From Actinomycetota bacterium (GTDB lineage Bacteria > Actinomycetota > UBA4738 > HRBIN12), in contig DATLZP010000115.1 of assembly GCA_035573935.1 (NCBI GenBank), positions 1-30,746 on the forward strand: 30,746 nucleotides of DNA, in the 5' to 3' direction. This document shows, in pieces, positions 1-15,731 of this stretch. The position numbers and the translations under genes are program-made. Within the stretch, counting starts at the first letter, position 1, and each line of letters starts with the position of its first letter. The notes below the pieces were generated by a model that was given only the letters and a program-made list of their open reading frames with translations, was not told the DNA's origin and made no database searches.

Positions 1-244
1 CCAGCCGGTCGGCCGGATCGCCCCCCAGCGCGCGCCGCACGACCTCGACCCGGCGGGCCTCCGCCGCCTCCACCGCGGCCGCGAGGGCCGCGCGGGCCGC
101 GGCCTCCGAGAAGCCCTCGCTCCGGACGCCGGAGATGAGGACCAGGCGGGCCCGGCACCGCCGCGCCAAACGGACCGCGGCCCCCACCGCGGCCGCGGCC
201 GTGGGCGAGCCGTCGGTCCCCACGACGATCGTCCGATAGGCCAT
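1..244 (-). CDS. Universal stress protein (USP), N-terminal part; runs off the window edge
   Basis: Not in the ORF track. Hand translation from ATG 244: MAYRTIVVGTDGSPTAAAAV...RRALGGDPADRL, with the USP beta1 motif IVVGTDGS and GDPA. The ATG overlaps the upstream TGA (ATGA). Confidence 0.88.
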   Translation of the reverse strand, partial: MAYRTIVVGTDGSPTAAAAVGAAVRLARRCRARLVLISGVRSEGFSEAAARAALAAAVEAAEARRVEVVRRALGGDPADRL

Positions 245-1092: not shown

Positions 1093-1260
1093 TCAGCCCC
1101 GGCGGCCGATCTCGCCCACCCGCTGGGGAGCGGGGGCGCCTGCATCGGACCGGAGCGTCCGGAGCACCCGCCGCTCGATCACGAGGGCGATCGCCCCCAT
1201 CGCCGCCCCGAGCAGGGCGCGCTCCAGGCGCCGGAGGAGCCGCCCCCCGGGCCCGGTCAC
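1093..1260 (-). CDS. Small hypothetical protein, 55 aa, one hydrophobic stretch
   Basis: GTG 1260 overlaps the cyclase stop (GTGA). MTGPGGRLLRRLERALLGAAMGAIALVIERRVLR..., the in-frame tail of track ORF 1093..1551. Confidence 0.55.
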   Translation of the reverse strand: MTGPGGRLLRRLERALLGAAMGAIALVIERRVLRTLRSDAGAPAPQRVGEIGRRG

Positions 1261-2546
1261 GACGGCGCCTCCGCGCCCAGCACGCGGTGGACCTCCACCG
1301 GCTCCTCCCGCCCCCGGACGTGGCGGACCCCGGCCGGCTCGGCCCGGACGGCGGGCGCCGCCCTCACGGTGCTCGCCGCCGCCACGATCTCCCCGCCCTC
1401 CGCCTCGGCCTGCAGCCGGGAGGCCACGTTCACGGCGTCCCCCACCACCGTGTACTCGAGGCGGCCACCGCCCCCGACCGTGCCGGCGATGACGAGGCCG
1501 GTGTTCACCCCGATCCCCACGAGGAGCGGGGGGAGCCCCGGGATCCCCCACCCCTCGGCGTTCAGCTCCTCCTGACGGGCCTGCATGGCGAGGGCGCAGC
1601 GCAGCGCCCGTTCCGCGTGGTCGGGCTGGGGGTCCGGCGCCCCGAACACGGCCATCACCGCATCCCCCTGGAACTTGTCGATCGTCCCCCCGTGGGCCAG
1701 CACGACCTCCGCCATCGCGGAGAGGTGCCGCCCCACGACCGTCGCGACGTCCCGGGCCGGGAGCTGCTCGGCGAGCGTCGAGAACCCGCGGATGTCGGAG
1801 AACAGGACGGTCACCTCGACCTCCTGGGGCGCGATCGCCGTCTCCGGCCGGGCGGCCAAGAGGTCGGCGAGCTGCTGGGGGACGAAGGAGGCCAGGGTCC
1901 GACGCGAGGCGGCCTGCTCGACCACCGCGGCGTGCAGGCGCTTGAACTCGTCGATCAGGCCGCCATCCGCCCGCCCGGCCATCCGCCGGAACAGCTCGGT
2001 GACCCGCCGGTCCACGGCCTCCTGCGTCGTGCCGAGCTCCGCGGCCATCTCCGCGTAGCCCATGCCCCGGGCCATGAGGTCGAGGATCCGGCGGTCCTCC
2101 TCCGCCGCGTCCCGCCGTCCCGACAGGCGCTCGGCGATCGCCGGGTCCACCGCCGACCCCCCCGCCGCCACCTCCCGGATGGCCCGGACCAGCTCGTCCC
2201 CCTGGGCGATGCGGTCCTTCAGCAGGTAAGCGAGGCCGCTCTGGCCCTTCCCCAGGAGCGCGATGGCGTAGTCCTCGTCGTCGTGGGCCGAGAGGACGAC
2301 GACGCCGGTCCCGGGGTGCCGGCCCCGGATCTCGTGCGCGCAGTCGATCCCCTCCAGCCGGAAGTGGGGAGGCATCTTGATGTCGGTGACCACCACGTCC
2401 GGAACGGTGTCCGCGGCCGCGCGGAGCAGCCCGGGCGCGTCCGCCGCCACCCCCACCACCTCGATGTCCGGGAACGATTCGAGCAGGGCCCGCACGCCCT
2501 CCCGGACCAGGACGTTGTCCTCACCCAGCACGACCCGGATCGTCAC
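1257..2546 (-). CDS. Response regulator with REC, LuxR-like HTH remnant and class III adenylate cyclase domain (429 aa)
   Basis: REC: VVLGEDN, TDIKMP, VLSAH, YLLK. HTH-like: RILDLMARGMGYAEMAAELG. Cyclase: VLFSDIRGF, IDKFQGDAVMA, GVNTG, EYTVVGDAVNVASRL. Start set at GTG 2546 from SD GGAGG spacing (track uses 2552). Confidence 0.92.
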   Translation of the reverse strand: MTIRVVLGEDNVLVREGVRALLESFPDIEVVGVAADAPGLLRAAADTVPDVVVTDIKMPPHFRLEGIDCAHEIRGRHPGTGVVVLSAHDDEDYAIALLGKGQSGLAYLLKDRIAQGDELVRAIREVAAGGSAVDPAIAERLSGRRDAAEEDRRILDLMARGMGYAEMAAELGTTQEAVDRRVTELFRRMAGRADGGLIDEFKRLHAAVVEQAASRRTLASFVPQQLADLLAARPETAIAPQEVEVTVLFSDIRGFSTLAEQLPARDVATVVGRHLSAMAEVVLAHGGTIDKFQGDAVMAVFGAPDPQPDHAERALRCALAMQARQEELNAEGWGIPGLPPLLVGIGVNTGLVIAGTVGGGGRLEYTVVGDAVNVASRLQAEAEGGEIVAAASTVRAAPAVRAEPAGVRHVRGREEPVEVHRVLGAEAPS

Positions 2547-2614
2547 GCCCACCCCTCCCCGCCCGGCGCCCGCCCGGGGCCCGGCCGCTCGTCCGACGCG
2601 CCCGGCGCCCCGTG

Positions 2615-2620
2615 TAGCAT
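2615..2620 (+). promoter_or_regulatory. -10 element TAGCAT, probable leaderless promoter of the NarL-type regulator
   Basis: TANNNT 6 nt before GTG 2627, with no SD. Confidence 0.6.
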
Positions 2621-2626
2621 CGCCCC

Positions 2627-3295
2627 GTGGTCCGCGTCGTGTTCGCCGAGGATAACTACCTCGTGCGGGAGGGGACCGCCGCGCTCCTCTCCGCCCGCGA
2701 GGACGTGGATCTCGTGGCCACCGTGGGCGACCTCGACGGCCTGCTGGCCGCGGTCGCCGAGCACGGCCCGGAGGCCGTCCTCACCGACATCCGGATGCCC
2801 CCCACCCACACCACCGAGGGGATCCAGGCCGCGAAGAGGATCCGCGACGAGCACCCGGGCACCGGCGTCGTGGTCCTGTCCCAGTACGCGGAGGAGGAGT
2901 ACGCCTACGAGCTCCTGCGCGACGGCGCGGCCGGCCTCGGCTACCTGCTCAAGGAACGCGTGGCGGACGTGGACGAGGTGGTCCGGGCGCTCCACGAGGT
3001 GGCCCGCGGCGGCTCCGTCCTCGACCCGAAGGTGGTCGAGGCCCTCGTGGCCCGCAAGGACCGCCTGGCGCACTCCCCGCTGGCCCAGCTCACCGACCGG
3101 GAGCGCGAGGTCCTGGCGCACATGGCCGAGGGGAAGAACAACGCCGCGATCGCCAGGGCGATGTTCCTCACCGAGCGGGCCGTCGAGAAGCACATCAACT
3201 CGCTGTTCCACAAGCTCGGCCTGTCGGAGGAGCGTGAGATCCACCGCCGCGTGATGGCCGTCCTCACCTTCCTCCGGGAGGAGCCGGTCGGCTAG
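2627..3295 (+). CDS. NarL/LuxR-family response regulator (REC + HTH)
   Basis: AEDN, TDIRMP, VLSQY, YLLK; HTH LTDREREVLAHMAEGKNNAAIA...VEKHINSLFHKLG. Confidence 0.96.
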   Translation: MVRVVFAEDNYLVREGTAALLSAREDVDLVATVGDLDGLLAAVAEHGPEAVLTDIRMPPTHTTEGIQAAKRIRDEHPGTGVVVLSQYAEEEYAYELLRDGAAGLGYLLKERVADVDEVVRALHEVARGGSVLDPKVVEALVARKDRLAHSPLAQLTDREREVLAHMAEGKNNAAIARAMFLTERAVEKHINSLFHKLGLSEEREIHRRVMAVLTFLREEPVG

Positions 3296-3992: not shown

Positions 3993-4403
3993 CTACTGCG
4001 CGCGGCGGGTGTCCACGATGAACACCGAGCACGGCGCGTGCTGCACGACGGCGTTCGGTACGCTGCCCAGGAACCACCGGCGCCTCCCGTGGGTCCCGCG
4101 GTTGCCGACGACGATCACGTCCACCCCCTCCTCGTCGGCCACCTGGCAGATCGTCTCGGCGGGATCGCCCGCCTCGGCCCGGGTCCGGACCTTCACGGCG
4201 GGGAACCGCGACGGCATCCGGGCCAGGTAGGCCTCCGGGTCCGGGACCTTCCCGGGGTCGAACACCTCCCGGGCATCGAGGGGCGGCCGGACGTAGAGCA
4301 CGAGCAGCTCCGCCTCCCTGGCTCCGGCCAGCGCGGCGGCGGTCTCCACCGCCAGGTCGGCCGCGGCCGAGGTGTCGGTCCCCACCAGCAGCTTCTGGAT
4401 CAT
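3993..4403 (-). CDS. Universal stress protein, single domain, ATP-binding type
   Basis: LLVGTDTS, GDPAETI, VIVVGNRG-x9-GS (G-2X-G-9X-GS), VVQHAPCSVFIV; SD GAGGAGG. Confidence 0.95.
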   Translation of the reverse strand: MIQKLLVGTDTSAAADLAVETAAALAGAREAELLVLYVRPPLDAREVFDPGKVPDPEAYLARMPSRFPAVKVRTRAEAGDPAETICQVADEEGVDVIVVGNRGTHGRRRWFLGSVPNAVVQHAPCSVFIVDTRRAQ

Positions 4404-4620: not shown

Positions 4621-6723
4621 ATGACCGCACGGACGGCCTCTCGCCTGGCCTGGGCCGCGGTGGCCCTGTTCGCGGCGCTCGTCGCCAGCGGGCTCGCCCT
4701 CCTCGCCCGGAACGGACGGGGAGGCCTGGGCGGGAACCTCGCCATGGTCGTCGTCTTCGGATCGATCGTCGGGGTGGGGGCCCTCGTCGTCTCCCACCAG
4801 CCGGGGAACCCCATCGGATGGCTGTTCCTCTTCATCGGGACCGGCGCCGCGCTGAGCTTCGCCTCCGGGGAGTACGAGTTCCTGGCCTACGTGGCGGACC
4901 CCGCTCCGCCCCCGGGCCGGGCGATCGCCGCCTGGGTCTCCGGCTGGGCCTGGGTCGTGTCGATCGGCCCGATCATGACCTACGTTCCCCTCCTCTTCCC
5001 CGACGGCCGGCTGCCATCGCCCCGCTGGCGGCCGGTGGCGTGGGCGGCCGGTGCGCTGCTCCTCGTGTCCGCCCTCCTGTTCGCCGTGGCCGAGCGCCTG
5101 GAGATCACCGACGGGGTCCGGGTCCCCAACCCCTTCGGCCTGGTGGACCTCCCGGTGGCCTCCATCGACCAGGCGACCTTCCTCGCCTTCGTCGCGGTGG
5201 CCCTCCCCTCGGTCGCCGCCCTGATCGTGCGGTTCCGGAGGTCGACCGGCGAGGAGCGGCTCCGCCTCAAGTGGTTCACGTTCGGGATCGGGGTCCTGGC
5301 CGGGTTCTTCCTGTTCAGCGCGGCGGTCCAACTGCTCGGCCTGGGGGATGAGGTGCTCGGGGGGGACCTCATCGCGGCGGCCGCGTTCATGGCCGTCCCC
5401 GTGGGGGCGGGGATCGGGATCCTCCGCTACCAGCTCTTCGACATCGACCTCGTGATCCGGAAGACGGTCGTGTTCGGCCTCCTGGCCGCCTTCATCACGA
5501 TCGTCTACGGGGTCGTCGTGCTGGGGATCCCGGCCCTGGTGCTCGGCGTCCGGCCCACCGGGATGGGCGCGCTCCCCCTCGTGGCGGCGGTCGTGCTCGC
5601 GATCGCGTTCCAGCCCGTCCGCCGGCGGGCGCAGCACTGGGCGAACCGCCTCGTCTACGGGGAGCGGGCCACGCCCTACGAGGTCCTCTCGGAGTTCGCC
5701 CAGCGCATGAGCGGGACGTTCGCGGCGGAGGAGCTCCTGCCGCGGACGGCCCGGATCCTGAACGAGGGCACGGGGGCCGAGCGGACCGACGTGTGGCTGC
5801 GGGTGGGGGACGAGCTCCGGCCGGCCGCATCCTGGCCCTCCGGTGGACCCGAGCCCGGGCCGCTGCGGGTGGGGGCCGACGGCGAGCTGCCCCCGATCCC
5901 GGGCGCGGACGCCGCGTACCCCGTGCGACACCAGGACGAGCTGCTGGGCGCGGTCTCGATCCGCAAGCCTCGCGACGAGCCGATCACGGACACCGAGGAC
6001 CGGCTGCTGGCCCACGTCGCGGCCCAGGCCGGCCTCGTGCTGCGGAACGCTCGGCTCACCGAGGAGCTCCGGAGGACGATCGACGAGCTCCGGGCCTCCC
6101 GCCAGCGCCTGGTGACGGCCCAGGACGAGGAACGTCGGCGGCTGGAGCGGAACATCCACGACGGGGCCCAGCAGCAGCTCGTGGCCCTCACCGTGCAGCT
6201 CCGGCTCCTCGAGGAGCGGATCGGGCGGGACCCGGAGGGGGCGAGGGAGGCCGCGTCGCAGCTCCGGGGGGCGGCCGCCGAGGCCCTCGAGGACCTCCGG
6301 GACCTGGCCCGGGGGATCTACCCCCCGCTCCTCGCCGACAAGGGGCTCCCGGCGGCGATCGAGGCCCAGGCCCGCAGGTCGAACACCCCCATCGACGTTG
6401 AGGCGGACGGCGTGGCACGCCACCCGCCCCAGACGGAGGCCGCCGTCTACTTCTGCTGCCTCGAGGCGATCCAGAACGCGACGAAGCACGCGGGCGCGGC
6501 CCGCATCGTCGTCCGGATCTCGGAGGGGGATGGCGAGCTTCGCTTCGAGGTCGAGGACGACGGTCGGGGGTTCGAGCCGGCCGCGATCCCCCGAGGGACC
6601 GGGCTGCAGAACATGTCCGACCGGCTGGAGGCGCTGGGGGGCACCCTCGAGATCCGATCCGTCCCGGGCCGCGGCACGACGATCCGGGGACGGCTGCCCA
6701 CGGACGGGGGGCGGGCGGGATGA
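4621..6723 (+). CDS. Membrane sensor histidine kinase HK1 (multi-TM, GAF-like, HisKA_3, HATPase_c), 700 aa
   Basis: H-box ERRRLERNIHDGAQQQL (His codon 6157-6159), N-box EAIQNATKHA, DDGRGF, GTGLQNM. Start placed at ATG 4621. Confidence 0.93.
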   Translation: MTARTASRLAWAAVALFAALVASGLALLARNGRGGLGGNLAMVVVFGSIVGVGALVVSHQPGNPIGWLFLFIGTGAALSFASGEYEFLAYVADPAPPPGRAIAAWVSGWAWVVSIGPIMTYVPLLFPDGRLPSPRWRPVAWAAGALLLVSALLFAVAERLEITDGVRVPNPFGLVDLPVASIDQATFLAFVAVALPSVAALIVRFRRSTGEERLRLKWFTFGIGVLAGFFLFSAAVQLLGLGDEVLGGDLIAAAAFMAVPVGAGIGILRYQLFDIDLVIRKTVVFGLLAAFITIVYGVVVLGIPALVLGVRPTGMGALPLVAAVVLAIAFQPVRRRAQHWANRLVYGERATPYEVLSEFAQRMSGTFAAEELLPRTARILNEGTGAERTDVWLRVGDELRPAASWPSGGPEPGPLRVGADGELPPIPGADAAYPVRHQDELLGAVSIRKPRDEPITDTEDRLLAHVAAQAGLVLRNARLTEELRRTIDELRASRQRLVTAQDEERRRLERNIHDGAQQQLVALTVQLRLLEERIGRDPEGAREAASQLRGAAAEALEDLRDLARGIYPPLLADKGLPAAIEAQARRSNTPIDVEADGVARHPPQTEAAVYFCCLEAIQNATKHAGAARIVVRISEGDGELRFEVEDDGRGFEPAAIPRGTGLQNMSDRLEALGGTLEIRSVPGRGTTIRGRLPTDGGRAG

Positions 6724-8792
6724 GGCCGGGGACGGCCCGCGGGGTGGCGTGGGGCGCCTTCGGGACGGCCGTCGCCTCCGCGGCGGGAGGGATCGCGGTC
6801 AGCGTGGCGAGCGGAGCAGGGCGGGGCGAGGTCGGCGACCCGGTGATCGGCCTCGGGCTCCTCGTGTTCGGCACCGTCGGAGCCCTCGTCGCGTCGAGGC
6901 GGCCGGGGAACGCGATCGGATGGATCTTCGTGTCGGTGGCGCTCTTCATCGGTGTCATCGGCGCGCTCGAGGGGATCCAGGACCGCCTCGCCGCCGGCGG
7001 GGACTCATGGGCGGCGCTCGGGGAGGACGCCTCGCTCGCCGCCCGTCTCCTGGCCTGGATCGGCGGATGGGCCTGGGTCCCCTCCATCTTCGTCCCGACG
7101 ACGTTCCCCCTGCTGCTGTTCCCCGACGGCCGTCTGCCATCGCGCCGGTGGCGAGCCCTCTTCTGGGCGGCCGCGATCGGGCTCCCGGCGTTCTCGCTCT
7201 CGATGGCCTTCGATCCCTCGAACTACGGGGGTGGACGGCTCCCCCTGGGGATCCGCCCTCCTGGTCCCCTCGTGGCCGCCTCCGGGCTGGGAAGCCTCCT
7301 GCTGGTCGGCGGGGTGATCGGCGGAGGCGCGGCGGTGGTCACCCGGCTCCGGCGGTCCTCGGGCGAGGAGCGCCAGCAGATCAAGTGGCTCGCGTACGCC
7401 GGCGTCCTCGCCGCGGTCTGCCTCGTCGGGAGCTTCCTCACCGGGGGCATCCTCGCCGCCCTGGGCGTGGATGCCGCCGAGGGCACCGCGGTCGCCGACG
7501 TGCTGAACCTCGTCGTCCTCGTCTCGCTGCTCGCGCTCCCCATCGCCATGGGGTTCGCGATCCTCCGCTACCGCCTCTACGACATCGACCTGGTCATCCG
7601 GAAGACGGTCGTCTACGGGGCGCTCGCGGCGTTCATCACGCTCGTGTACGTGGGCGTCGTGGCCGGGATCGGGGCACTGATCGGGAGCCGCGGGAACGTC
7701 CTGCTGTCGGGGCTCGCCGCCGCGGTCGTCGCGGTGGCGTTCCAGCCGGTGCGCCACCGGGCCCAGCGCCTGGCGAACCGGCTCGTGTACGGGAGGCGGG
7801 CCACACCGTACGAGGTCCTCGCCGAGTTCTCCGCCCGGCTGGCCGGCTCCTACTCCCTCGACGACGTCCTGCCCCGCATGGCCCGCGTCCTCGCCGAGGG
7901 CACGGGCGCCGCCCGCGCGACGATCTGGCTCCGGTCGGCGCAGGGACACCGCGCCGCCGCCACCTGGCCGGCAGGCACCCACCCGGCACCGCTCGATCCC
8001 GGGTTCGAGGTCCGCCATCAGGGGGAGGTGCTCGGGGCGATCTCCGTCGCGACGCCCCCCGACGAGCCGCTCACACCGGTTCAGGAACAGCTGATCCGCG
8101 ACGTGGCCGGGCAGGCGGGGCTGGTGCTCCGGAACGTCCGGCTGATCGAGGACCTCCGGGCCTCCCGCCAGCGCCTCGTAGCCGCCCAGGACGAGGAACG
8201 TCGGCGGCTGGAGCGGAACATCCACGACGGGGCCCAGCAGCAGCTCGTGGCCCTCACGGTGCAGCTCCGGCTCCTCGAGCAGCGGATCGAGCGGGACCCG
8301 GAGGGGGCGAGGGAGGCCGCGGCCCAGCTCCGGGGAGCGGCCGCCGAGGCGCTCGAGGACCTCCGGGACCTGGCCCGGGGGATCTACCCCCCGCTCCTCG
8401 CGGACAAGGGGCTCCCGGCGGCGATCGAGGCCCAGGCCCGGAAGGCCCCGGTCCCGGTCAGGCTCCAGGCGGACGGCGTGGGGCGCTACCCCCGGGAGGC
8501 GGAGGCCGCCGTGTACTTCTGCGTCCTGGAGGCCCTCCAGAACGCGGCGAAGCACGCGGGGGGGTCGGAGGTCCGGGTCCGGCTGTGGGCCTCGGAAGGC
8601 GAGCTGGCCTTCGCCGTGGAGGACGACGGGCCGGGCTTCGACCCCTCCACCACCCCCCGGGGGGCCGGCCTCCAGAACATGGCCGATCGGATCGAGGCCC
8701 TGGGCGGCTCGCTCGAGGTCCGGAGCTTGCCCGGTGCGGGCACGACCGTGGCCGGGAGGCTGCCCACCCACCACTCGGAGGCGACGCCGTGA
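6720..8792 (+). CDS. Membrane sensor histidine kinase HK2, 690 aa
   Basis: ATGA overlap with HK1; ERNIHDGAQQQL, EALQNAAKHA, DDGPGF, GAGLQNM. Confidence 0.94.
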   Translation: MRPGTARGVAWGAFGTAVASAAGGIAVSVASGAGRGEVGDPVIGLGLLVFGTVGALVASRRPGNAIGWIFVSVALFIGVIGALEGIQDRLAAGGDSWAALGEDASLAARLLAWIGGWAWVPSIFVPTTFPLLLFPDGRLPSRRWRALFWAAAIGLPAFSLSMAFDPSNYGGGRLPLGIRPPGPLVAASGLGSLLLVGGVIGGGAAVVTRLRRSSGEERQQIKWLAYAGVLAAVCLVGSFLTGGILAALGVDAAEGTAVADVLNLVVLVSLLALPIAMGFAILRYRLYDIDLVIRKTVVYGALAAFITLVYVGVVAGIGALIGSRGNVLLSGLAAAVVAVAFQPVRHRAQRLANRLVYGRRATPYEVLAEFSARLAGSYSLDDVLPRMARVLAEGTGAARATIWLRSAQGHRAAATWPAGTHPAPLDPGFEVRHQGEVLGAISVATPPDEPLTPVQEQLIRDVAGQAGLVLRNVRLIEDLRASRQRLVAAQDEERRRLERNIHDGAQQQLVALTVQLRLLEQRIERDPEGAREAAAQLRGAAAEALEDLRDLARGIYPPLLADKGLPAAIEAQARKAPVPVRLQADGVGRYPREAEAAVYFCVLEALQNAAKHAGGSEVRVRLWASEGELAFAVEDDGPGFDPSTTPRGAGLQNMADRIEALGGSLEVRSLPGAGTTVAGRLPTHHSEATP

Positions 8793-10900
8793 CTCCACGC
8801 ACCGCCTCCCGCCTCGCGTGGTCGCTGTCCGGGGTATCCGCGACGGCGATGCTGCTCTCGTTGCTCGTCAGCCAGCTCCGCCAGGGTGGCAGCACCGGCT
8901 TCGGCACCATCGGCGTCGGCGCCGCACTCACGTTCCCCCTCGTCGGTGGGCTCGTGGGGTCCCGCCGCCCAGAGAACGCCATCGGATGGCTCCTCGGCGT
9001 GACCGGCTTTTCTCTCGGGATGGCGGCGTTCTCGCAGCAGTACTCCCACTACGCACTGATCGATCGGAGCGGTCTTCCGCTCGGCGACCTCGCGGCATGG
9101 GTGGGAACCTGGATCTGGCCCACCGGCATCGTGATCCTCTTCGTCTTCGCGCTCCTGCTCTTCCCCACTGGTCACCTTCCCTCGCGAAGGTGGCGCCCCG
9201 TGGCCTGGTTGGGCGGGCTGAGCACCGCTCTGGGGACGATCCCCGTGGCCATCACAGCGTGGCCCATCCGAGGCCCGATCCTGCTGGAGATCGGGGATGA
9301 TGCACCCGGCGCAGCGACCGCCGGTTTCAAGCTCGCCTTCGATCTCCAGGTCGCGGCCATCCTGCTGATGTTCGCGCTGGGGCTGGTCTCGGCGGTGTCG
9401 GTCGTGCTGCGGTTCAGGAGGTCGGCGGGAGAGGAGCGCCAGCAACTGAAGTGGTTCGCCCTCGGTGGTTCGCTCCTGGTCGTCGGTTTCATCCTCAATA
9501 GCCCACTGTTCCACCTCGGCGGCGACGTGCTCCCGGTCCTCCTCATCCCCCTCCTGCCTGCTGCCATCGGGATCGCCATCCTGAAGTACCGCCTCTACGA
9601 CATCGACGTCGTCATCAGCAAGGCGGTCCTCTTCGGCGCGCTCGCGGCCTTCATCACGGTCGTCTACGTGGGGGTCGTGGTCGGCGTGGGGTCGGTGCTC
9701 GGTAGGACCGAGCCCGACCTCACCCTCCAGGTGGCGGCGACGGCGCTCGTCGCGCTCGCGTTCCAGCCGGTGCGGGAGGGAGCCCGGCGGCTGGCGAACC
9801 GCCTGGTGTACGGGGAGCGGGCCGAGCCCTACGAGGTCCTCGCTCGATTCGCCTCCCGGGCCGCGGGGACGTACGCGACCGAGGACGTGCTCCCGCGCAC
9901 GGCGCGGGTGATCGGGGAGGGGACCGGCGCCGCCCGAGCCGAGGTGTGGCTCCGGGTGGGGGAGGAGCTCCGGCTCGGCGCGGCCTGGCCGGAGGACGGG
10001 GGCGGGCGCCCCCGGGCGCTCCCCATGGCCGACGGCCGGCTCCCGGAGGTCCCCGGCGCCACCGAGCTGGTGCCGGTCGCGCAGCGCGGGGAGCTCCTGG
10101 GCGCGGTGGCCGCCACGAAGCCACCGGGGGAGCCGCTCACGCCCGCCGAGGCGTCGCTCCTCGACGACCTGGCGAAGCAGGCCGGCCTGGTGCTCCGCAA
10201 CGCCCGGCTCACCGAGGAGCTCCGGGCCCGCCTGGAGCAGATCGCTGCCCGGGCGGAGGAGCTCCGGGCGTCCCGCCAGCGGATCGTGGCGGCGCACGAC
10301 GCGGAGCGGCGACGCCTTGAGCGGAACATCCACGACGGCGCGCAGCAGCACCTCGTGGCCCTCGCCGTCAAGCTCCGCCTGGCCCGGGAGCTCCTGGCTC
10401 GCGATCCGGGCCGGGCGGCCGCGCTCCTGGGGGAGCTCCGCGCCGAGATCGACCAGGCGCTCGAGACCCTCCGGGACCTGGCGGGTGGGATCTACCCGGC
10501 GGTCCTCGAGGAACGGGGCATCGCCGCGGCCCTGGAGGACCAGGCCGGACTGGCGGACGTCCCCGTGGAGATCGAGGGGGACGGCCTGGCCCGGTGGCCG
10601 ATCGAGACCGAGGCCGCGGTGTACTTCTCCTGCCTGGAGGCCCTGCAGAACGCGCTCAAGCACGCCGGGGCCCGCCGGGTCCGCATCCGGCTGACCGAGG
10701 CGGCGGGACACCTCCGCTTCTCCGTCGCCGACGACGGCAGGGGATTCGATCCCGCCACGGTCCCCGTGGGGGCCGGCCTCCGCAACATGGCGGACCGGGT
10801 GGAAGCGTTGGGGGGCCACCTCGAGGTCCGATCGGTCCCCGGCCTGGGGACGACGGTCGAGGGCGCCGTCCCCGTGGAGATCCCGGGGTCGGCCCGATGA
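8789..10900 (+). CDS. Membrane sensor histidine kinase HK3, 703 aa
   Basis: GTGA overlap with HK2; true start inside track ORF 6398..10900 (MTPRTASRLAW); ERNIHDGAQQHL, EALQNALKHA, DDGRGF, GAGLRNM. Confidence 0.93.
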   Translation: MTPRTASRLAWSLSGVSATAMLLSLLVSQLRQGGSTGFGTIGVGAALTFPLVGGLVGSRRPENAIGWLLGVTGFSLGMAAFSQQYSHYALIDRSGLPLGDLAAWVGTWIWPTGIVILFVFALLLFPTGHLPSRRWRPVAWLGGLSTALGTIPVAITAWPIRGPILLEIGDDAPGAATAGFKLAFDLQVAAILLMFALGLVSAVSVVLRFRRSAGEERQQLKWFALGGSLLVVGFILNSPLFHLGGDVLPVLLIPLLPAAIGIAILKYRLYDIDVVISKAVLFGALAAFITVVYVGVVVGVGSVLGRTEPDLTLQVAATALVALAFQPVREGARRLANRLVYGERAEPYEVLARFASRAAGTYATEDVLPRTARVIGEGTGAARAEVWLRVGEELRLGAAWPEDGGGRPRALPMADGRLPEVPGATELVPVAQRGELLGAVAATKPPGEPLTPAEASLLDDLAKQAGLVLRNARLTEELRARLEQIAARAEELRASRQRIVAAHDAERRRLERNIHDGAQQHLVALAVKLRLARELLARDPGRAAALLGELRAEIDQALETLRDLAGGIYPAVLEERGIAAALEDQAGLADVPVEIEGDGLARWPIETEAAVYFSCLEALQNALKHAGARRVRIRLTEAAGHLRFSVADDGRGFDPATVPVGAGLRNMADRVEALGGHLEVRSVPGLGTTVEGAVPVEIPGSAR

Positions 10901-12987
10901 GGTTCCGCGCGACCTCCGCCGTCGCGTGGGGCGCGTGGGCGGCCTTCGCCCTCGGCCTGGGCTGGACCCTCGCCGTCCGGGGACCGGCGCTCTCCGGGGA
11001 CCTGCTCCAGGACATCCCGCTGATCGTGGCCTTCTCCGCCTTCCCCACCGTCGGCGCCGTGGTGGCCTCGCGACGCCCCCGGAACCCGATCGGCTGGCTG
11101 TTCCTCGGGATCGGGGTCCTGGCCGCCGCGGGCGCCGCCAGCGAGACCTACGCCGACATGGCGCTTCCCCGTCCCGGGTCCCCTCCGATGCTCGCCGTCC
11201 TGGCCGCCTGGATCCAGGCCTGGTACTGGTACCCGCTCCTGGCCATGGCGACCGTGTTCCCGCTGCTCCTGTTCCCGGCGGGGCTGCCGTCCCGGCGCTG
11301 GCGACCGGTCCTGTGGCTGGCGGTGATCTCCGTCCTGGCGACCACGGCCGCCGCCGCGCTCCAGCCGACGCTGTCGGGGGGCGGGAGGACGATCCCGAAC
11401 CCGTTCGGCGTCCGGTGGACCGGCGCGCCGGACGTCGAGGAGACCGCGTTCTTCCAGGCGTTCTCGCTCGTGTTCGGGGGCACCCTGATGGCGGCCGCTG
11501 CCTCCCTCGTCGTGCGGTTCCGGCGGTCCCGGGGGGATGAGCGGCTCCAGCTCAAGTGGTTCGTCTTCGCGGCCGGCGTCCTCGCCGCGTCGATCATCCT
11601 GGCCACGGCCGTCCCCGCCTTCGACCGCTCCGCGGCCGGCGGGCTGATGACGGGGTTCGCGCTGGCGCTCATCCCCATCGCGTGCGGGATCGCGATCCTC
11701 AGGCACCGCCTCTACGACATCGACCTCGTCCTCAACCGGGCGGTGGTCTTCGGGGCGTTGGCCGCGTTCATCGGCGCCGTCTACGTGGCGATCGTGGTGG
11801 GGCTGGGATCCCTGGCCGGTCGGGTGGGCGAGCCGAGCGTGCCGCTCCAGATCGCGGCCACGGCGGTCGTCGCGGTGGCGTTCCAGCCGGTCCGGGAGCG
11901 GGTCCAGCGGCTCGCCAACCGGCTCGTGTACGGCGAGCGGGCCACCCCCTACGAGGTCATGGCCGGCTTCGCCCACCGCATGGCCGACACGCTGTCCGTG
12001 GACGAGACGCTGCCGGCCATGGCGGAGGTGGCGGCCCGAGGTGTCGGCGCCAGGTGGGGGCGGGTGGGCATCCGGCTCCGCGACGGCGGCGAGCGGGCGG
12101 CGAGCTGGCCCCCGGGAGCGCCGGAGCCTCCGGCCCCCATCGCCATCCCGGTCACGCACCGGGGTGAGCCGGTCGGGGAGATCGCCGTCGCCAAGGCGCC
12201 CGGCGACCCCCTCACGCCGGCCGAGCGGCGGCTGCTGGAGGACCTGGCCTCCCAGGCCGGCCTGGCCCTGCGGAACGCGGGGCTCGCCGCCGAGCTCGAG
12301 GCCCGGCTCGGGGAGCTCACGGCGCAGGCGGAGGACCTGCGCCGGTCCCGGGAGCGGCTGGTGACGGCCCGGGACGAGGAACGCCGGCGCCTGGAGCGGG
12401 AGATCCGGGAGGGCCCGGAGCGGCGCCTGCTCGCGATGCGCGCCGACGTGGACCGCGCGGCCCGCCTGGCGACGACCGACCCCGGGGCGGCCGGCGCCGT
12501 CCTCGACGACCTGGGGGCGCTCGCGAACACCACGCTCGAGGAGCTCCGGGACCTGGCCCGGGGGATCTACCCCCCGCTCCTCGCCGAGGAGGGCCTGCTG
12601 GCGGCGCTCCGGGCGCACGTCCGCAAGGCGGGGATCGCGGCCGAGATCTCCGCGGACGGCGGGTCGGCCGCCGCGCGCCTGGCCCCGGAGGTGGAGGCCG
12701 GGATCTACTTCTGCCTGGTCCACGCGCTCCGCAACGTGCAGCGGCACGCGGCCGGCGCCGCGGTCTCCGTGCGCATCTCGCGGGACGGCGACGGCGTCGG
12801 GTTCGAGGTCGTGGACCGGGGCCCGGGGTTCGATCCGGCCGCCACCCGGACCGGGCAGGGGCTCCAGGTGATGCGGGACCGGGTCGAGGCCCTGGGTGGC
12901 CGGCTCGACGTGTCGAGCGCGCCGGGCCGGGGCACCGTGGTCCGGGGCCGGATCCCGCTCGCCCTCGGAGCCGGGGCGGCCCCGTGA
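10897..12987 (+). CDS. Kinase-like sensor HK4 lacking the phosphoacceptor His (pseudokinase), 696 aa
   Basis: ATGA overlap with HK3. H-box reads EREIREGPERRL (His replaced by Arg, codon 12406-12408); N-box HALRNVQRHA; DRGPGF and GQGL retained. Confidence 0.88.
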   Translation: MRFRATSAVAWGAWAAFALGLGWTLAVRGPALSGDLLQDIPLIVAFSAFPTVGAVVASRRPRNPIGWLFLGIGVLAAAGAASETYADMALPRPGSPPMLAVLAAWIQAWYWYPLLAMATVFPLLLFPAGLPSRRWRPVLWLAVISVLATTAAAALQPTLSGGGRTIPNPFGVRWTGAPDVEETAFFQAFSLVFGGTLMAAAASLVVRFRRSRGDERLQLKWFVFAAGVLAASIILATAVPAFDRSAAGGLMTGFALALIPIACGIAILRHRLYDIDLVLNRAVVFGALAAFIGAVYVAIVVGLGSLAGRVGEPSVPLQIAATAVVAVAFQPVRERVQRLANRLVYGERATPYEVMAGFAHRMADTLSVDETLPAMAEVAARGVGARWGRVGIRLRDGGERAASWPPGAPEPPAPIAIPVTHRGEPVGEIAVAKAPGDPLTPAERRLLEDLASQAGLALRNAGLAAELEARLGELTAQAEDLRRSRERLVTARDEERRRLEREIREGPERRLLAMRADVDRAARLATTDPGAAGAVLDDLGALANTTLEELRDLARGIYPPLLAEEGLLAALRAHVRKAGIAAEISADGGSAAARLAPEVEAGIYFCLVHALRNVQRHAAGAAVSVRISRDGDGVGFEVVDRGPGFDPAATRTGQGLQVMRDRVEALGGRLDVSSAPGRGTVVRGRIPLALGAGAAP

Positions 12988-15192
12988 GCCGCGGCGCTCG
13001 CGCGGAGCCCCCGGAGCCACTCCCCGTCCCGACCGGGGGCGGCCCGGGAGGAGGACACGAGGCGAGCGAGCGGGGACGGAGGCGCCTCCCCTGGGTCGTG
13101 TGGGCGGTCGGCTTCCTCGTGATCTTCCCGGGAGCGATGGTCCTCGGGATCCGCAACGGCAGCCTCTCGCAGGACCCGATGCTCATCATGCTTTCCATCG
13201 GATTGGTGACCGGCTACGCCGCCGTCGGCGCGCTGGTGGCATCGAGGAGCTCGGTCCCGGTGATCGGCTGGCTCATGCTCGTCATCGGCGTGGGGTTCCT
13301 CCTCAGCGCGGCGGCCGCCGAGTACGTGATCTACGCGTACCGGACCGACCCGGGCGCTCTGCCCCTCCGGTCCGCGGTGGCCTGGCTGTGGAGCTGGATC
13401 GACGTGCCCGCGATCATCTCGGTGCTCTACCTCTTGCTCCTCTTCCCCACCGGGCGGGTGCCATCCCACAGGTGGCGGTCCCTCCCCCCCGTGATCGGCC
13501 TGTTCAGCCTCATGGCCGTGGCCGGCCAGGTCGTCCGATCGGCCCCGATCGAGCCGACCGATGGCGTCCGCGTCCCCAACCCGACCGCCGTGCCGGAGCT
13601 CGACGCGGCGGCCGACGCCATGCTCACGGCCGCCGCGTTCGTCCTGGTCCCCGCGGCGATCGCCTGCGCCATGGCCCCGGTGCTCCGGTTCCAACGCTCG
13701 ACGGGGGTGGAGCGTCAGCAGATCCGCTGGCTGGCCTTCGCGGTCGCGCTGGGCGGCGTCGCGCTGGTCGTGGTGCTGGTGAGCGGGATCGGCCTCGGTC
13801 CGAAAGAGACGGTCGTGAACGACGTGGCGTTCTTCGCGTTCTTCGCCTGCGTCGGCATCGGGATCCCCATCGCGGCCGGGGTGGCCGTCCTTCGGTACCG
13901 CCTCTACGCCCTGGACCTCGTGGTCCGGAAGACCCTGGTGTTCGGCTTGCTCGTCGTGTCGGCGTCGATCGCCTACGGCGCGGTCGTCGTCTCGATCGGG
14001 TTCCTGGTGGGGGAGCGCAACACCCCGCTCTCGATGTTCGCGCTCGGGATCGCGCTCGGAACCGCGTTCCCGCTCTTCCGGCGGCAGGCCACCCGGCTGG
14101 CCGACCGGATCGTGTACGGGCGGCGAGCCACGCCGTACGAGGTGCTCTCCGGCTTCGCGGAGCGGGTGGCGAGGACGTACGCGAGCGAGGACGTGCTCCC
14201 CCGGATGGCCCAGATCCTCGCCCAGGGGACCGGGGCCGAGGTGGCCCGGGTGTGGCTCCTGATGGGGCGGGAGCTCCGGGCCGAGGCGACGTGGCCGCCG
14301 GATGGGGGGCCCGCCGGTCCCGCCCGGGTCGCCGGCGACGCCCTCCCGGAGCTCCCCGGCGGCGAGCGGGCCTTCGAGGTGCGGCACCAGGGGGAGCTGC
14401 TCGGGGCGCTCAGCCTGCGGATGCCCCAGAGCGACTCCCTCGACCCGGCCCGGGAGAGGCTCGTGGCCGACCTCGCGTCCCAGGGCCGGGCTGGTCCTCC
14501 GGAACGTCCGGCTGATCCAGGAGCTCAGGGGGTCCCGACGTCGACTGGTCGCCGCCCAGGACGAGGAGCGCCGGCGGATCGAACGCAACCTCCACGACGG
14601 CGCGCAGCAGCAGCTGGTGGCGCTCTCCGTGCGGCTCCGCCTAGCGGAGCAGCTCGTCGAGCGGGATGCGGCCAAGGCCAAGGAGGCGATCGGGCGGATC
14701 CAGGCCGAGGCCACCGAGGCGCTCGAGAACCTCCGGGATCTGGCCCGGGGGATCTACCCGCCGCTCCTCGCCGACCGGGGGCTCCCCGCCGCCCTCGAGG
14801 CCCAGGCCCGGAAGGCGTCCCTCCCGGTGCGGGTGGAGGCCTCCGGGGTCGACCGCTACCCACGGGAGGTGGAATCCGCGGTCTACTTCTGCGTCCTCGA
14901 GGCCCTCCAGAACGCGGCGAAGTACGCCCGGGCCGAGCACGTGATGGTCCGGCTCTCCGCCGCGCACGACGAGCTGCGGTTCGAGGTCTCCGACGACGGT
15001 GCGGGGTTCGACCCGGGGTCCGCGCATGGCGGCACGGGGCTCCGGGGGATGGCCGACCGGGTGGAGGCCGTGGGCGGCTCCCTCCAGGTCCGCTCGGCCC
15101 CAGGGTCGGGGACCTCGGTCGTCGGACGGGTGCCGGTCGGCACGGGAGGGACGCGGGAGGACGGGCTCCATCCCGGTGGGACCACCGGCTAG
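12984..15192 (+). pseudogene. Sensor histidine kinase HK5 split by a +1 G insertion (about 735 aa if repaired): recent pseudogene or sequencing error
   Basis: GTGA overlap with HK4. The sensor/GAF half is in the frame of 12984. CAG-G-GCC at 14481-14487 shifts the rest (AGLVLRN...ERNLHDGAQQQL...EALQNAAKYA...DDGAGF) into the frame of ORF 14302..15192. Confidence 0.85.
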
Positions 15193-15288: not shown

Positions 15289-15666
15289 TCAGTCCGCGCC
15301 GGCCGTCGCGGCCGACCAGGCCTGCTCCAGCCGGTCGGGGGCGAACACCGCCTTCGGGATGTAGGCGGCGGCGCCGCACTCGGCGGCCCGGGGCGCGTAC
15401 TCCTCCTCCTCGTAGGTGGAGAGCAGGAGGACGACCACGGAGTCCCCCTCGGCCAGGATGCGCCGGGTGGCCTCCAGCCCATCGATCCCCGGGAGGTTCA
15501 CGTCCATCAGGACCAGGTCGGGCCGGAGCTCCCGGGCCTTCTCCACGGAGTCCTCGCCGGTCTCGGCCTCCCCCGCGACCTCGAAGCCCTCCGTGGCCTC
15601 CACCACCATCCGGGCGGCCAGGCGGAACGGCGCCTGGTCGTCCACGATCAGCACCCGGACGCTCAC
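15289..15666 (-). CDS. Single-domain response regulator (REC only), 125 aa
   Basis: MSVRVLIVDDQ, LVLMDVNLPGIDG, LLSTY, YIPK; SD GGAGGTGA before GTG 15666; no output domain. Confidence 0.93.
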   Translation of the reverse strand: MSVRVLIVDDQAPFRLAARMVVEATEGFEVAGEAETGEDSVEKARELRPDLVLMDVNLPGIDGLEATRRILAEGDSVVVLLLSTYEEEEYAPRAAECGAAAYIPKAVFAPDRLEQAWSAATAGAD

Positions 15667-15685
15667 GAGCGTCACCTCCACGCCA

Positions 15686-15731
15686 AGGTTCCCACCGGCC
15701 GGGCGTCCCGGCAGTGATGCTGGCACCACTC
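15686..15731 (-). promoter_or_regulatory. Promoter of the single-domain REC: GAACCT -10-like element plus an 8-2-8 inverted repeat
   Basis: AGTGATGC-TG-GCACCACT at 15713-15730 (7/8 symmetric), centred about 30 nt upstream of GAACCT (15691-15686). Confidence 0.5.

What the first reader, a model, noticed from the sequence alone, without database searches (positions are those of the whole stretch)
1257..3295. REC-HTH-adenylate cyclase apparently built from a duplicate of the divergent NarL regulator
Seen: the two REC domains share EDNxLVREG, TDIxMPP, EGI, HPGTGVVVLS, GLxYLLKxR and ExVRAxxEVAxGGSxxDP. The fusion keeps a drifted LuxR-type HTH before the cyclase. The starts are only 80 nt apart, head to head. 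The cyclase retains both metal Asp (SD, GD), the Lys of DKF, a Thr at the second purine-specifying position, and the N/R pair (NVASR). Established: Lys with Asp/Thr marks ATP-specific class III cyclases, and REC helix 1 largely sets kinase specificity. Inference: the same kinases switch on a transcription factor and a cAMP source in parallel, and the HTH may now serve as a dimerisation linker.
Basis: partly seen in the sequence, partly recalled or inferred. Interest (0 to 1): 0.72.

Follow-up and report, generated by a model that had tools for sequence, protein, structure and literature searches.

The report
Receiver-regulated adenylate cyclase with relic HTH
This gene encodes a two-component response regulator whose output is a complete cAMP-making enzyme, joined through a worn-down NarL-type DNA-binding domain. 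It belongs to an old, widespread and unstudied family of soil Actinomycetota, and it is not a recent copy of the regulator gene next to it.

Summary
Window 1257-2546(-) encodes REC, a LuxR/GerE-like HTH, a cyclase transducer helix and a class III cyclase. All six catalytic residues (D253, D297, K293, T368, N375, R379) and all receiver phospho-site residues are present. It lies head to head, 80 nt apart, with a NarL-type regulator at 2627-3295(+), which is 45% identical over 196 residues.

The fusion arose once and long ago. REC+HTH of all fusions sampled, from at least four families of the phylum, form one clade (100/99) inside one NarL subfamily. A lineage-specific duplication of the neighbour is rejected (AU p = 5e-5). 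An ancient sister relation is neither shown nor rejected (p = 0.30).

The gene pair, a USP gene and arrays of TM-GAF-HisKA_3 kinases are syntenic in most of 80 related species. In most relatives the cyclase heads its own kinase operon. Here it does not, so the five-kinase array beside NarL is its most likely input.

The HTH keeps its fold and core, but its exposed recognition-helix residues have drifted. It is probably a transducer, not a DNA reader.

New here: separate proteins join the same sensor-GAF module directly to the same cyclase subfamily.

This scan found the family before on other DNA. I found no paper on it.

The parts
1257..2546 (-). Gene for the REC - relic HTH - CTE - class III cyclase response regulator. 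It is 429 aa from the GTG at 2546; an alternative upstream GTG at 2552 gives 431 aa, and that numbering is used in this report.
   Evidence: ORF and GC3; Pfam; 429-aa database record and thousands of full-length homologues; SD GGAGG at 2554-2558 on the minus strand.
2163..2546 (-). Receiver domain (residues 3-130). Acidic pocket E11/D12, phospho-acceptor D57, S88, Y109, K112.
   Evidence: Pfam PF00072, 55 bits. All six residues are invariant in 78 orthologues. AF2 gives a (beta-alpha)5 fold.
1920..2108 (-). Relic LuxR/GerE-type HTH (residues 149-211). Helices 151-161, 166-173 and 177-192, plus an alpha10-like helix from 198.
   Evidence: hhalign 95.9% against the neighbour family's GerE; Foldseek matches to full-length NarL-family regulators; core conserved, exposed recognition-helix residues relaxed; Pfam GerE not hit.
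1833..1919 (-). Helical linker with the cyclase transducer element (residues 212-240; RRTLASFVPQQ at 217-227).
   Evidence: It aligns to the CTE region of Cya2 in 6fht, residues 514-524, and the CTE is described in PMC5995499. Homology with sensor-GAF-cyclase proteins starts here.
1278..1832 (-). Class III cyclase catalytic domain (residues 241-425). Metal Asp D253 and D297; substrate K293 and T368; transition-state N375 and R379.
   Evidence: Pfam PF00211, 86 bits; PDB sequence hits Cya2 2w01/6fht at E 1e-37 and CyaB 3r5g at E 2e-33; residue conservation.
2547..2626 (.). 80-nt divergent intergenic region. It carries a TAGCAT (TANNNT) hexamer at 2615-2620, 6 nt before the narL GTG, which suggests a leaderless narL transcript.
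   Evidence: Sequence. The spacer is 23-89 nt (median 38) in 68 loci, and a TANNNT hexamer is found at that place in 65 of 68. Promoter function is inferred.
2627..3295 (+). Canonical NarL-type response regulator (REC + GerE), the conserved divergent neighbour.
   Evidence: Pfam. A full-length orthologue lies head to head in 67 of 75 loci with enough upstream sequence. Its recognition helix is invariant in 69 orthologues.
3993..4403 (-). Universal stress protein gene, a conserved member of the locus.
   Evidence: Pfam Usp, 113 bits; present between narL and the kinase array in most related loci.
4621..15192 (+). Five tandem, start/stop-overlapping sensor kinases (multi-TM sensor - GAF - HisKA_3 - HATPase_c): 4621-6723, 6720-8792, 8789-10900, 10897-12987 and 12984-15192. 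The fourth lacks the phospho-His. The fifth changes frame near 14482.
   Evidence: Pfam; DHp motifs; frames. These are the only kinases of this family found in the assembly.
15289..15723 (-). Stand-alone single-domain receiver at the far end of the kinase array.
   Evidence: Pfam Response_reg, 88 bits. It is 60% identical to the extra C-terminal receiver fused to a distant cyclase homologue, P0246.

Best explanation
The gene encodes a response regulator that makes cAMP. Its first ~211 residues are a complete NarL-type regulator: a receiver plus a four-helix GerE fold. That regulator was fused once, long ago, at the end of its last helix to the transducer helix and catalytic domain of a class III adenylate cyclase. 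I infer the following mechanism. A membrane kinase of the TM-GAF-HisKA_3 family phosphorylates D57. As in NarL-family regulators, this frees and dimerises the C-terminal helical module. The relic HTH and its last helix then line up the two transducer helices, so the two cyclase domains form the head-to-tail dimer with two ATP sites. The HTH no longer needs to read DNA. The neighbouring NarL is the unfused transcription-factor branch of the same subfamily and sits in the same conserved locus. In most relatives each of the two regulators has adjacent kinases of one family with indistinguishable DHp helices. In this genome the cyclase has no kinase of its own nearby, so the five-kinase array beside NarL most likely drives both transcription and cAMP synthesis. 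Shown here: the anatomy, catalytic and phospho-site residues, single ancient origin, synteny, and relaxed DNA-contact residues. Inferred: activation by phosphorylation, which kinases act, and loss of DNA binding.
For: Domains and residues. N-terminal 215 residues fold like full-length LiaR, VraR, RcsB, DesR and NarL. HTH homologous to GerE. In the cyclase family the HTH core and several surface residues (T176, E178, D181, T185, F188, H207) are invariant, but R182, R183, R189 and R190 are replaced by G, S, T or Q in a quarter to almost half of 78 orthologues. The equivalent K188, H189, H195 and K196 are invariant in all 69 neighbour orthologues. Single origin of all fusions (100/99) within one NarL subfamily (100/99). 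Family spread: more than 150 species genomes carry a relative; thousands of full-length homologues at 78-91% identity; more distant full-length forms at 44-50%. Conserved locus of kinases-usp-narL, then divergently cyclase-kinases. Proteins P0252 and P0256 join the same sensor-GAF module (40% identical to the window's kinases, E 1e-76 to 2e-78) directly to CTE plus cyclase that is 58-61% identical to this one. This links the kinase sensors and this cyclase subfamily in one pathway. No column in the DHp-CA region separates cyclase-side from NarL-side kinases. The genome has at least 10 cNMP-binding domains to read cAMP.
Against: No biochemical data exist for any member. Nothing computed here shows the direction of regulation (activation or inhibition by phosphorylation), ATP use, or dimerisation. 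Basic residues are still common on the recognition helix (R182 in 58 of 78 orthologues, R190 in 55 of 78), so non-specific or residual DNA binding is not excluded. The assembly is 81% complete, so a cyclase-side kinase could lie on a missing contig. Cyclase-side and NarL-side kinases separate on the tree with a single label change, although the branch has no support (SH-aLRT 3). That could mean two insulated pathways. Interdomain geometry in the full-length AF2 model is uncertain (pTM 0.49, linker pLDDT below 50).
Confidence: 0.7

Rival explanations
1. The ancestor of all fusions arose by tandem, head-to-head duplication of the ancestor of the neighbouring NarL, followed by capture of a cyclase module. 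The two genes are then true sisters that have stayed adjacent ever since.
For: They are mutual best paralogues within genomes: 133 bits against 85 for the next, and 148 against 109. Adjacency is conserved across the order. More distant fusions still lie within 0.5-17 kb of a NarL of the same group and a kinase of the same family. The AU test does not reject all fusions plus the neighbour clade (p 0.29-0.30).
Against: The best trees do not join them. In the REC tree the neighbour groups, weakly, with stand-alone NarLs of other families; in the REC+HTH tree the backbone is a polytomy. Stand-alone NarLs in genomes without fusions are as similar to the cyclase REC as the neighbour is (50-55%). The recent, lineage-specific form is rejected (p 5e-5).
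Confidence: 0.3
2. Two insulated pathways. The kinases downstream of the cyclase are its cognate partners and the NarL-side kinases serve only NarL. In this genome the cyclase would then be an orphan, fed by a kinase on a missing contig or by small phosphodonors, and not by the five-kinase array.
For: In 55 of 68 loci with enough downstream sequence the cyclase is followed on the same strand by one to three kinases. The side label needs only one change on a tree of 164 kinase DHp-CA domains. There are two family-wide fixed differences in receiver helix 1: V14 against Y, and V20 against T.
Against: The separating branch is very short and unsupported (SH-aLRT 3), and no DHp-CA column discriminates the two sets. 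The nearest relatives (L018, L001) also lack cyclase-side kinases. No other kinase of the family was found in this assembly.
Confidence: 0.3
3. A bifunctional protein. The HTH still binds DNA, so the protein is both a transcription factor and a cyclase, for example a DNA-tethered local source of cAMP or an autoregulator of the divergent promoter.
For: The GerE fold, its hydrophobic core and part of the recognition helix (T175, T176, E178, V180, D181, V184, T185) are strongly conserved. Arginines remain common on the exposed face. The intergenic region shared with narL is tiny.
Against: The exposed recognition-helix positions vary, with G, S, T or Q replacing Arg in a quarter to almost half of orthologues, while they are invariant in the true transcription factor next door. 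Pfam GerE does not recognise the domain. Some homologues (P0250, P0261, P0292) appear to lack the HTH stretch altogether. The last helix is continuous with the cyclase transducer helix, which would constrain the DNA-bound dimer geometry.
Confidence: 0.12
4. Phosphorylation inhibits the cyclase rather than activating it, or the receiver mainly acts as a phosphate sink competing with NarL. Kinase activity would then lower cAMP or merely tune NarL output.
For: Sequence alone does not fix the sign of regulation. Engineered sensor-Cya2 fusions can be activated or inversely regulated depending on linker register (PMC5995499). A stand-alone receiver also sits in the locus.
Against: A complete, strongly conserved catalytic set and CTE argue that regulated cAMP output is the selected function. 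NarL-family receivers generally promote dimerisation on phosphorylation (established knowledge), and class III cyclases need a dimer.
Confidence: 0.15

Closest known systems
Receiver-regulated class III adenylate cyclases, e.g. cyanobacterial CyaC (Spirulina/Anabaena) and Dictyostelium ACR (PMC3009899)
   Same: A two-component receiver controls a class III cyclase domain in the same polypeptide. The Lys/Thr substrate pair is of the ATP-using type.
   Different: Those proteins have no NarL-type HTH between receiver and cyclase and are hybrid, multi-domain proteins. Here a whole NarL-type regulator is the input module and the receiver belongs to a NarL subfamily. My knowledge of CyaC is from memory and was not tested here.
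NarL/FixJ-family response regulators with solved full-length structures (LiaR 5hev, VraR 4gvp, RcsB, DesR 4ldz, NarL 1rnl, DosR 3c3w)
   Same: Residues 1-215 fold like them over about 200-220 aligned columns. The phospho-site residues are the same and the GerE-type helices are homologous.
   Different: Pfam GerE is not detected. Exposed recognition-helix residues are not conserved. The C-terminal helix runs on into a cyclase transducer helix instead of ending the protein.
Cya2 of Synechocystis (2w01) and its engineered E488K phytochrome fusion (6fht), and CyaB of P. aeruginosa (3r5g)
   Same: These are the best solved sequence relatives of the catalytic domain plus CTE (E 1e-37 to 2e-33). The Lys at the Cya2 E488 position matches the adenylate-cyclase variant.
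   Different: Different sensors: CHASE2, phytochrome and MASE2-type membrane modules, against a phospho-receiver here. Cya2 itself is a guanylate cyclase (Glu/Gly pair).
Rec-GGDEF diguanylate cyclases (e.g. DgcR, PMC8041772; PleD, WspR)
   Same: The logic is the same: a receiver phosphorylated by a kinase controls a second-messenger cyclase that must dimerise, through a helical linker.
   Different: A different catalytic fold and messenger (c-di-GMP), and no relic DNA-binding domain in between.
Mycobacterial cyclase-ATPase-TPR-LuxR proteins (the CHD+LuxR class in the actinobacterial LuxR census, PMC3466318)
   Same: They combine a class III cyclase domain and a LuxR-type HTH in one actinobacterial protein.
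   Different: The order is the opposite (cyclase N-terminal, HTH C-terminal), there is no receiver, and the HTH is intact. That census of 53 genomes lists no REC+LuxR+CHD architecture.
DevR/DosR-DevS/DosT system of Mycobacterium tuberculosis
   Same: The locus logic is similar: a NarL-type regulator, a USP gene and GAF-HisKA_3 kinases together.
   Different: The Dos kinases are soluble tandem-GAF haem sensors; here they are multi-TM proteins with a single GAF in arrays. No cyclase-bearing regulator belongs to the Dos system. This resemblance is recalled from knowledge and was not tested.

Membership tests
Class III nucleotidyl cyclase (Pfam PF00211) | Profile match above the curated cut-off | tested here: met
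   85.9 bits against a cut-off of 21.9, residues 245-417. PDB relatives at E 1e-37.
Class III nucleotidyl cyclase (Pfam PF00211) | Two metal-binding Asp, and the transition-state Asn and Arg | tested here: met
   D253, D297, N375 and R379 align to the canonical positions. All are invariant in 78 orthologues.
Class III nucleotidyl cyclase (Pfam PF00211) | ATP-type substrate pair (Lys plus Asp/Thr) | tested here: met
   K293 aligns with Cya2 E488 (K in the adenylate-cyclase variant 6fht). T368 aligns with the second specificity position. K is present in 77 of 78 orthologues and T in 78 of 78. Many distant homologues have Gln instead of Lys.
Class III nucleotidyl cyclase (Pfam PF00211) | Homodimer with catalytic activity | not testable with these tools
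Enzyme assays are needed.
Two-component receiver (Pfam PF00072) | Profile match, acidic pocket, phospho-Asp, Ser/Thr, Tyr/Phe and Lys switch residues | tested here: met
   55.1 bits against a cut-off of 30.2. E11, D12, D57, S88, Y109 and K112 are invariant in 78 orthologues. Phosphorylation itself is not testable here.
NarL/FixJ response regulators (REC + LuxR/GerE HTH, PF00196) | GerE profile match | tested here: not met
   There is no GerE hit at E <= 1 for P0001, only weak HTH_28 and Sigma70_r4_2 hits. P0244, P0246 and P0247 have none at E <= 0.01 either.
NarL/FixJ response regulators (REC + LuxR/GerE HTH, PF00196) | Homology and fold of the C-terminal helical domain | tested here: met
   hhalign gives 95.9%, E 6e-9 over 46 columns. 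Foldseek matches full-length NarL-family regulators at E 1e-11 to 1e-8. REC+HTH nest inside a NarL subfamily (100/99).
NarL/FixJ response regulators (REC + LuxR/GerE HTH, PF00196) | Conserved DNA-contacting residues on the recognition helix | tested here: not met
   The exposed positions 182, 183, 186, 189 and 190 are variable among orthologues. The neighbour's equivalents are invariant. DNA binding itself is not testable here.
   AU test on REC+HTH: delta lnL 54, p 4.8e-5. On REC only, p 0.056.
Ancient sister of the adjacent NarL lineage | All fusions plus the neighbour lineage form one clade, excluding other NarLs | tested here: inconclusive
   This is not the best tree, but it is not rejected: p-AU 0.29 and 0.30. 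The backbone is a polytomy.

The most novel reading that the evidence does not exclude
The relic HTH is an exapted, phosphorylation-operated dimerisation clutch. The NarL activation mechanism, in which the receiver releases the GerE domain and that domain pairs through its last helix, has been re-used to zip the cyclase transducer helices. Arrays of interchangeable TM-GAF sensors can then drive a transcription factor and a cAMP source from one locus. The same sensor and cyclase modules also occur as a one-component sensor-GAF-cyclase. The family would then be a natural case of swapping between one-component and two-component wiring of the same pathway.
Probability: 0.35. Interest if true: 0.6.

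Novelty: new variant of a known kind. Interest (0 to 1): 0.45.

Why it matters
Receiver-controlled cyclases are known. Here, though, a whole transcription-factor-type regulator serves as the input module of an enzyme, and its DNA-binding domain has been kept as a structural part. That gives a natural test case for how NarL-type activation, meaning domain release and dimerisation, can be coupled to a different output. It also shows how domain relics persist.

The locus joins a transcription factor, a cAMP source, a stress protein and up to a dozen related sensor kinases in abundant soil Actinomycetota that have never been cultured. The matching one-component sensor-GAF-cyclase proteins give an independent argument that these kinases and this cyclase work in one pathway.

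The practical value is modest. It offers a compact phospho-switchable adenylate cyclase for synthetic signalling, and better annotation for thousands of metagenomic genes.

Tried and rejected
- **Search for stand-alone relatives.** I searched the 5.8-billion-protein set with residues 1-215 alone to find the nearest stand-alone NarLs. The result was swamped by fragments and frameshifted copies of the fusion family and gave no outgroups. I sampled whole genomes instead.
- **REC-only phylogeny.** With 155 columns it could not decide between the hypotheses (AU p 0.056 and 0.29). Adding the HTH columns resolved the recent-duplication question.
- **Kinase specificity columns.** I looked for columns separating cyclase-side from NarL-side kinases in the DHp-CA region and found none. 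The separating branch has no support.
- **Receiver helix 1 as evidence for shared kinases.** The neighbour shares 11 of 19 positions with the cyclase in that stretch, but an unrelated receiver of the same genome shares 10. I do not rely on this argument.
- **Sensor-GAF-cyclase in relatives.** I searched 41 relatives for the full-length one-component form. Only split matches turned up, to kinases and to the fusion.
- **Literature.** Three full-text searches and two papers read found no description of a REC-LuxR-cyclase family.
- **Second copy of the fusion.** I considered a second copy in this genome, as seen in same-genus MAGs (L001/L018). None was found in this 81%-complete assembly.
Full report
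**What is there.** The window is contig C115 of an 81%-complete, 2.3-Mb MAG with about 74% G+C. It belongs to uncultured Actinomycetota (record titles). Two ORFs with coding-type GC3 lie head to head.

P0001 (1257-2552(-), 431 aa) hits Pfam Response_reg at residues 8-112 and Guanylate_cyc at 245-417. Between them there are only sub-threshold HTH hits, and GerE is not among them. P0002 (2627-3295(+), 222 aa) is a canonical REC+GerE regulator. The two are 45% identical over 196 residues (E 6e-52), and the alignment runs through the HTH.

Orthologues and the 429-aa database record begin at the GTG at 2546 (MTIRVV...). A GGAGG lies 7 nt upstream of it. I keep the 431-residue numbering below.

**Cyclase.** The closest solved relatives by sequence are Cya2 of Synechocystis (2w01, and its engineered fusion 6fht; E about 1e-37) and CyaB of P. 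aeruginosa (3r5g; E 2e-33).
- In those alignments D253 (FSDIRGF) and D297 (GDAVM) are the metal ligands.
- K293 (IDKF) sits at the position of Cya2 E488. The E488K change there turns Cya2 into an adenylate cyclase (PMC5995499).
- T368 (EYTVVG) is at the second specificity position.
- N375 and R379 (NVASR) are the transition-state pair.

Among 78 orthologues all are invariant, except for one K293E. Residues 217-227 (RRTLASFVPQQ) align with the cyclase transducer element (CTE) of Cya2.

ATP use is a sound inference from established class III rules, but it is not shown.

**Receiver and HTH.** E11, D12, D57, S88, Y109 and K112 are invariant in 78 orthologues, so the receiver looks phospho-competent.

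The stretch 149-194 is homologous to the first three GerE helices of the neighbour's family (hhalign 95.9%, E 6e-9). An AF2 model of residues 1-215 (pLDDT 84) is matched over about 200-220 columns by full-length NarL-family regulators: LiaR, VraR, RcsB, ChrA, DesR, NarL and DosR.

The full-length model (pLDDT 78, pTM 0.49) shows HTH helices at 151-161, 166-173 and 177-192. These are followed by a long helix at 198-223, a helix at 226-234, and the cyclase domain from 243.

Clear homology to sensor-GAF-cyclase proteins begins at about residue 212. The join therefore lies at the end of an alpha10-like helix that runs straight into the CTE. That this helix is the GerE alpha10 rests only on a weak MAFFT alignment and is an inference.

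**Is the HTH still a DNA reader?** Across 78 orthologues the mean frequency of the commonest residue per column is:

| Region | Mean frequency |
|---|---|
| REC | 0.91 |
| HTH | 0.78 |
| Linker | 0.68 |
| Cyclase | 0.83 |

. The HTH is therefore under constraint.

The pattern, however, is not that of a DNA reader. The hydrophobic core and some polar residues (T176, E178, D181, T185, F188, H207) are invariant, while the exposed recognition-helix positions vary:
- R182: 58 R, 11 G, 7 S.
- R183: 43 R, 32 Q.
- R189: 43 R, 10 G, 10 T.
- R190: 55 R, 12 G.

In the neighbour's family the equivalent K188, H189, N191, S192, H195 and K196 are invariant in all 69 sequences. Some homologues seem to lack the HTH stretch entirely (P0250, P0261, P0292). 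I conclude the fold is kept as a structural or transducer element, and conserved sequence-specific DNA binding is unlikely. This is an inference from conservation.

**How old is the fusion, and is it a copy of the neighbour?**
- Full-length homologues at 78-91% identity number in the thousands.
- More than 150 species-level genomes carry a relative.
- Clusters at 44-50% identity with the same architecture also exist (P0244, P0246, P0247).
- In a sample of 121 genomes of the phylum, window-type fusions occur in the window's own family (4 of 4) and in a second family of the order. More distant fusions occur in at least two further families.
- Stand-alone NarLs in genomes without any fusion are 50-55% identical to the cyclase receiver, the same as the neighbour's 54%. 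The listed motifs are therefore subfamily signatures.

Within genomes the two are each other's best paralogues.

A REC-only tree (81 rows) puts both in one subfamily (100/99) but does not join them. A REC+HTH tree (64 rows, 224 columns, LG+C20) puts all 14 fusions in one clade (100/99, stem 0.64). That clade sits inside the subfamily (100/99 against outgroup NarLs), and the backbone is unresolved.

AU tests give the following:
- A clade of window-type fusions plus neighbours is rejected (delta lnL 54, p 4.8e-5).
- A clade of all fusions plus neighbours is not rejected (p 0.30) (REC-only values are).

So there was one ancient fusion of a NarL of this subfamily. A recent local duplication is excluded. 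An ancient tandem duplication remains possible but unproven.

**The locus.** I examined 80 related loci.
- A full-length orthologue of the NarL lies head to head with the cyclase in 67 of 75 loci with enough upstream sequence. The spacers are 23-89 nt, median 38.
- A TANNNT hexamer lies 6-7 nt before the narL start in 65 of 68 loci (TAGCAT at 2615-2620 here). This suggests a leaderless narL mRNA whose promoter overlaps the 5' end of the cyclase gene (inference).
- Beyond narL lie a convergent USP gene and then one to several kinases.
- In 55 of 68 loci with enough downstream sequence the cyclase gene is followed on its own strand by one to three kinases.
- All these kinases are multi-TM sensor - GAF - HisKA_3 - HATPase_c proteins.

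The window and its nearest relatives (L018 at 91%, L001 at 87%) differ. Here a DUF2269-cupredoxin gene follows the cyclase, and all five kinases sit on the NarL side.

On a tree of 164 DHp-CA domains the side label needs only one change. The branch is very short and unsupported (SH-aLRT 3), however, and no column separates the two sets. The DHp helices have the same consensus.

No other kinase of this family was found in the assembly. In this genome the NarL-side array is therefore the most likely input to both regulators, but the assembly is incomplete and specificity was not measurable.

Similarity in receiver helix 1 is not a strong argument. The neighbour shares 11 of 19 positions with the cyclase in that stretch, and another receiver of this genome shares 10. 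Two differences are fixed family-wide: V14 against Y, and V20 against T.

**A fused form links the kinase sensors to this cyclase.** The closest relatives of the CTE plus cyclase part (58-61% identity) are 715-720-aa proteins, P0252 and P0256. Their first roughly 490 residues are 40% identical (E 1e-76 to 2e-78) to the sensor-GAF part of the window's kinases.

The same sensor family and the same cyclase subfamily therefore occur as a one-component protein elsewhere. They lie on metagenome contigs without informative context, and no full-length match was found in 41 relatives. This supports a functional link between these kinases and this cyclase.

A second hint comes from the distant homologue P0246. 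It carries an extra C-terminal receiver that is 60% identical to the stand-alone receiver at 15289-15723(-). That protein is known from a single 4-kb contig.

**Mechanism proposed.** A TM-GAF-HisKA_3 kinase phosphorylates D57. As in NarL-family regulators, this releases and pairs the C-terminal helical module. Its last helix is continuous with the CTE, so pairing sets the two cyclase domains into the active head-to-tail dimer.

cAMP is then read by some of the at least 10 cNMP-binding domains encoded in the genome. The genome also holds about ten class III cyclase domains. Every step from phosphorylation onward is inferred.

**Comparison with what is known.** Receiver-controlled class III cyclases and Rec-GGDEF cyclases are established kinds. 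A NarL-derived input with a retained relic HTH was not described in the papers I could search. A census of LuxR architectures in 53 actinobacterial genomes lists CHD+LuxR but no REC+LuxR+CHD.

Automatic annotation already names these genes 'class 3 adenylate cyclase / NarL family response regulator'. This scan has reported the family several times on other genomes, with follow-ups reaching the same general reading.

I rate it a new variant of a known kind, of moderate interest.
- The single-origin tree and AU tests.
- The quantified relaxation of the recognition helix against the neighbour.
- The side-specific kinase analysis.
- The one-component sensor-GAF-cyclase link.

**Data note.** The tallies include three genomes flagged unpublished (G049, G121, G141). 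No sequence from them was fetched or used in any tree or alignment.

Noticed in passing
window 12984-15192 (+), break near 14475-14490: The fifth tandem kinase changes reading frame. The sensor-GAF part reads in one frame up to about 14483 and the DHp-CA part in another from about 14482, inside a G/C run (cagggccggg). This is either an assembly indel or a real pseudogene.
   Followed up: partly
window 10897-12987 (+): The fourth kinase has EIREG where its paralogues have NIHDG, so the phospho-accepting His is replaced by Arg. Orthologues in the same array position form their own starred clade of 7 in the kinase tree.
   Followed up: partly
window 15289-15723 (-) and L148:1962-3647: The stand-alone receiver at the end of the kinase array is 60% identical (E 2e-44) to an extra receiver fused to the C-terminus of a distant REC-HTH-cyclase homologue (P0246, 561 aa). 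That homologue is known from one metagenome contig only.
   Followed up: partly
L141:482-2629, L142:1619-3781, L143:67-2229: One-component proteins join the kinase-type multi-TM sensor and GAF directly to the same cyclase subfamily (P0256, P0252). No full-length match was found in 41 relatives of the window's genome.
   Followed up: partly
window 2615-2620 (+), and the same place in L002-L080: A conserved TANNNT hexamer lies 6-7 nt upstream of the narL start codon in 65 of 68 loci. This suggests a leaderless narL transcript whose promoter overlaps the start of the cyclase gene.
   Followed up: partly
window 244-1047 (-); L001, L018, and further downstream in L049-L078: A DUF2269 membrane domain fused to a cupredoxin-like domain follows the cyclase directly here and in the nearest relatives. 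In several other loci it lies after the cyclase-side kinase, followed by a second USP-like gene. It is thus a recurrent member of the wider locus.
   Followed up: no
L001/L018, L022/L038, L023/L025: Some related MAGs carry two copies of the cyclase-NarL pair on different contigs. One of the 78 orthologues has Glu instead of the substrate Lys (K293E). Many distant homologues have Gln at that position, so nucleotide specificity may vary in the wider family.
   Followed up: no
genomes G150, G137, G141: The TM-GAF-HisKA_3 kinase family is greatly expanded in some relatives, with up to 14 matches in one genome, often in long tandem runs.
   Followed up: no
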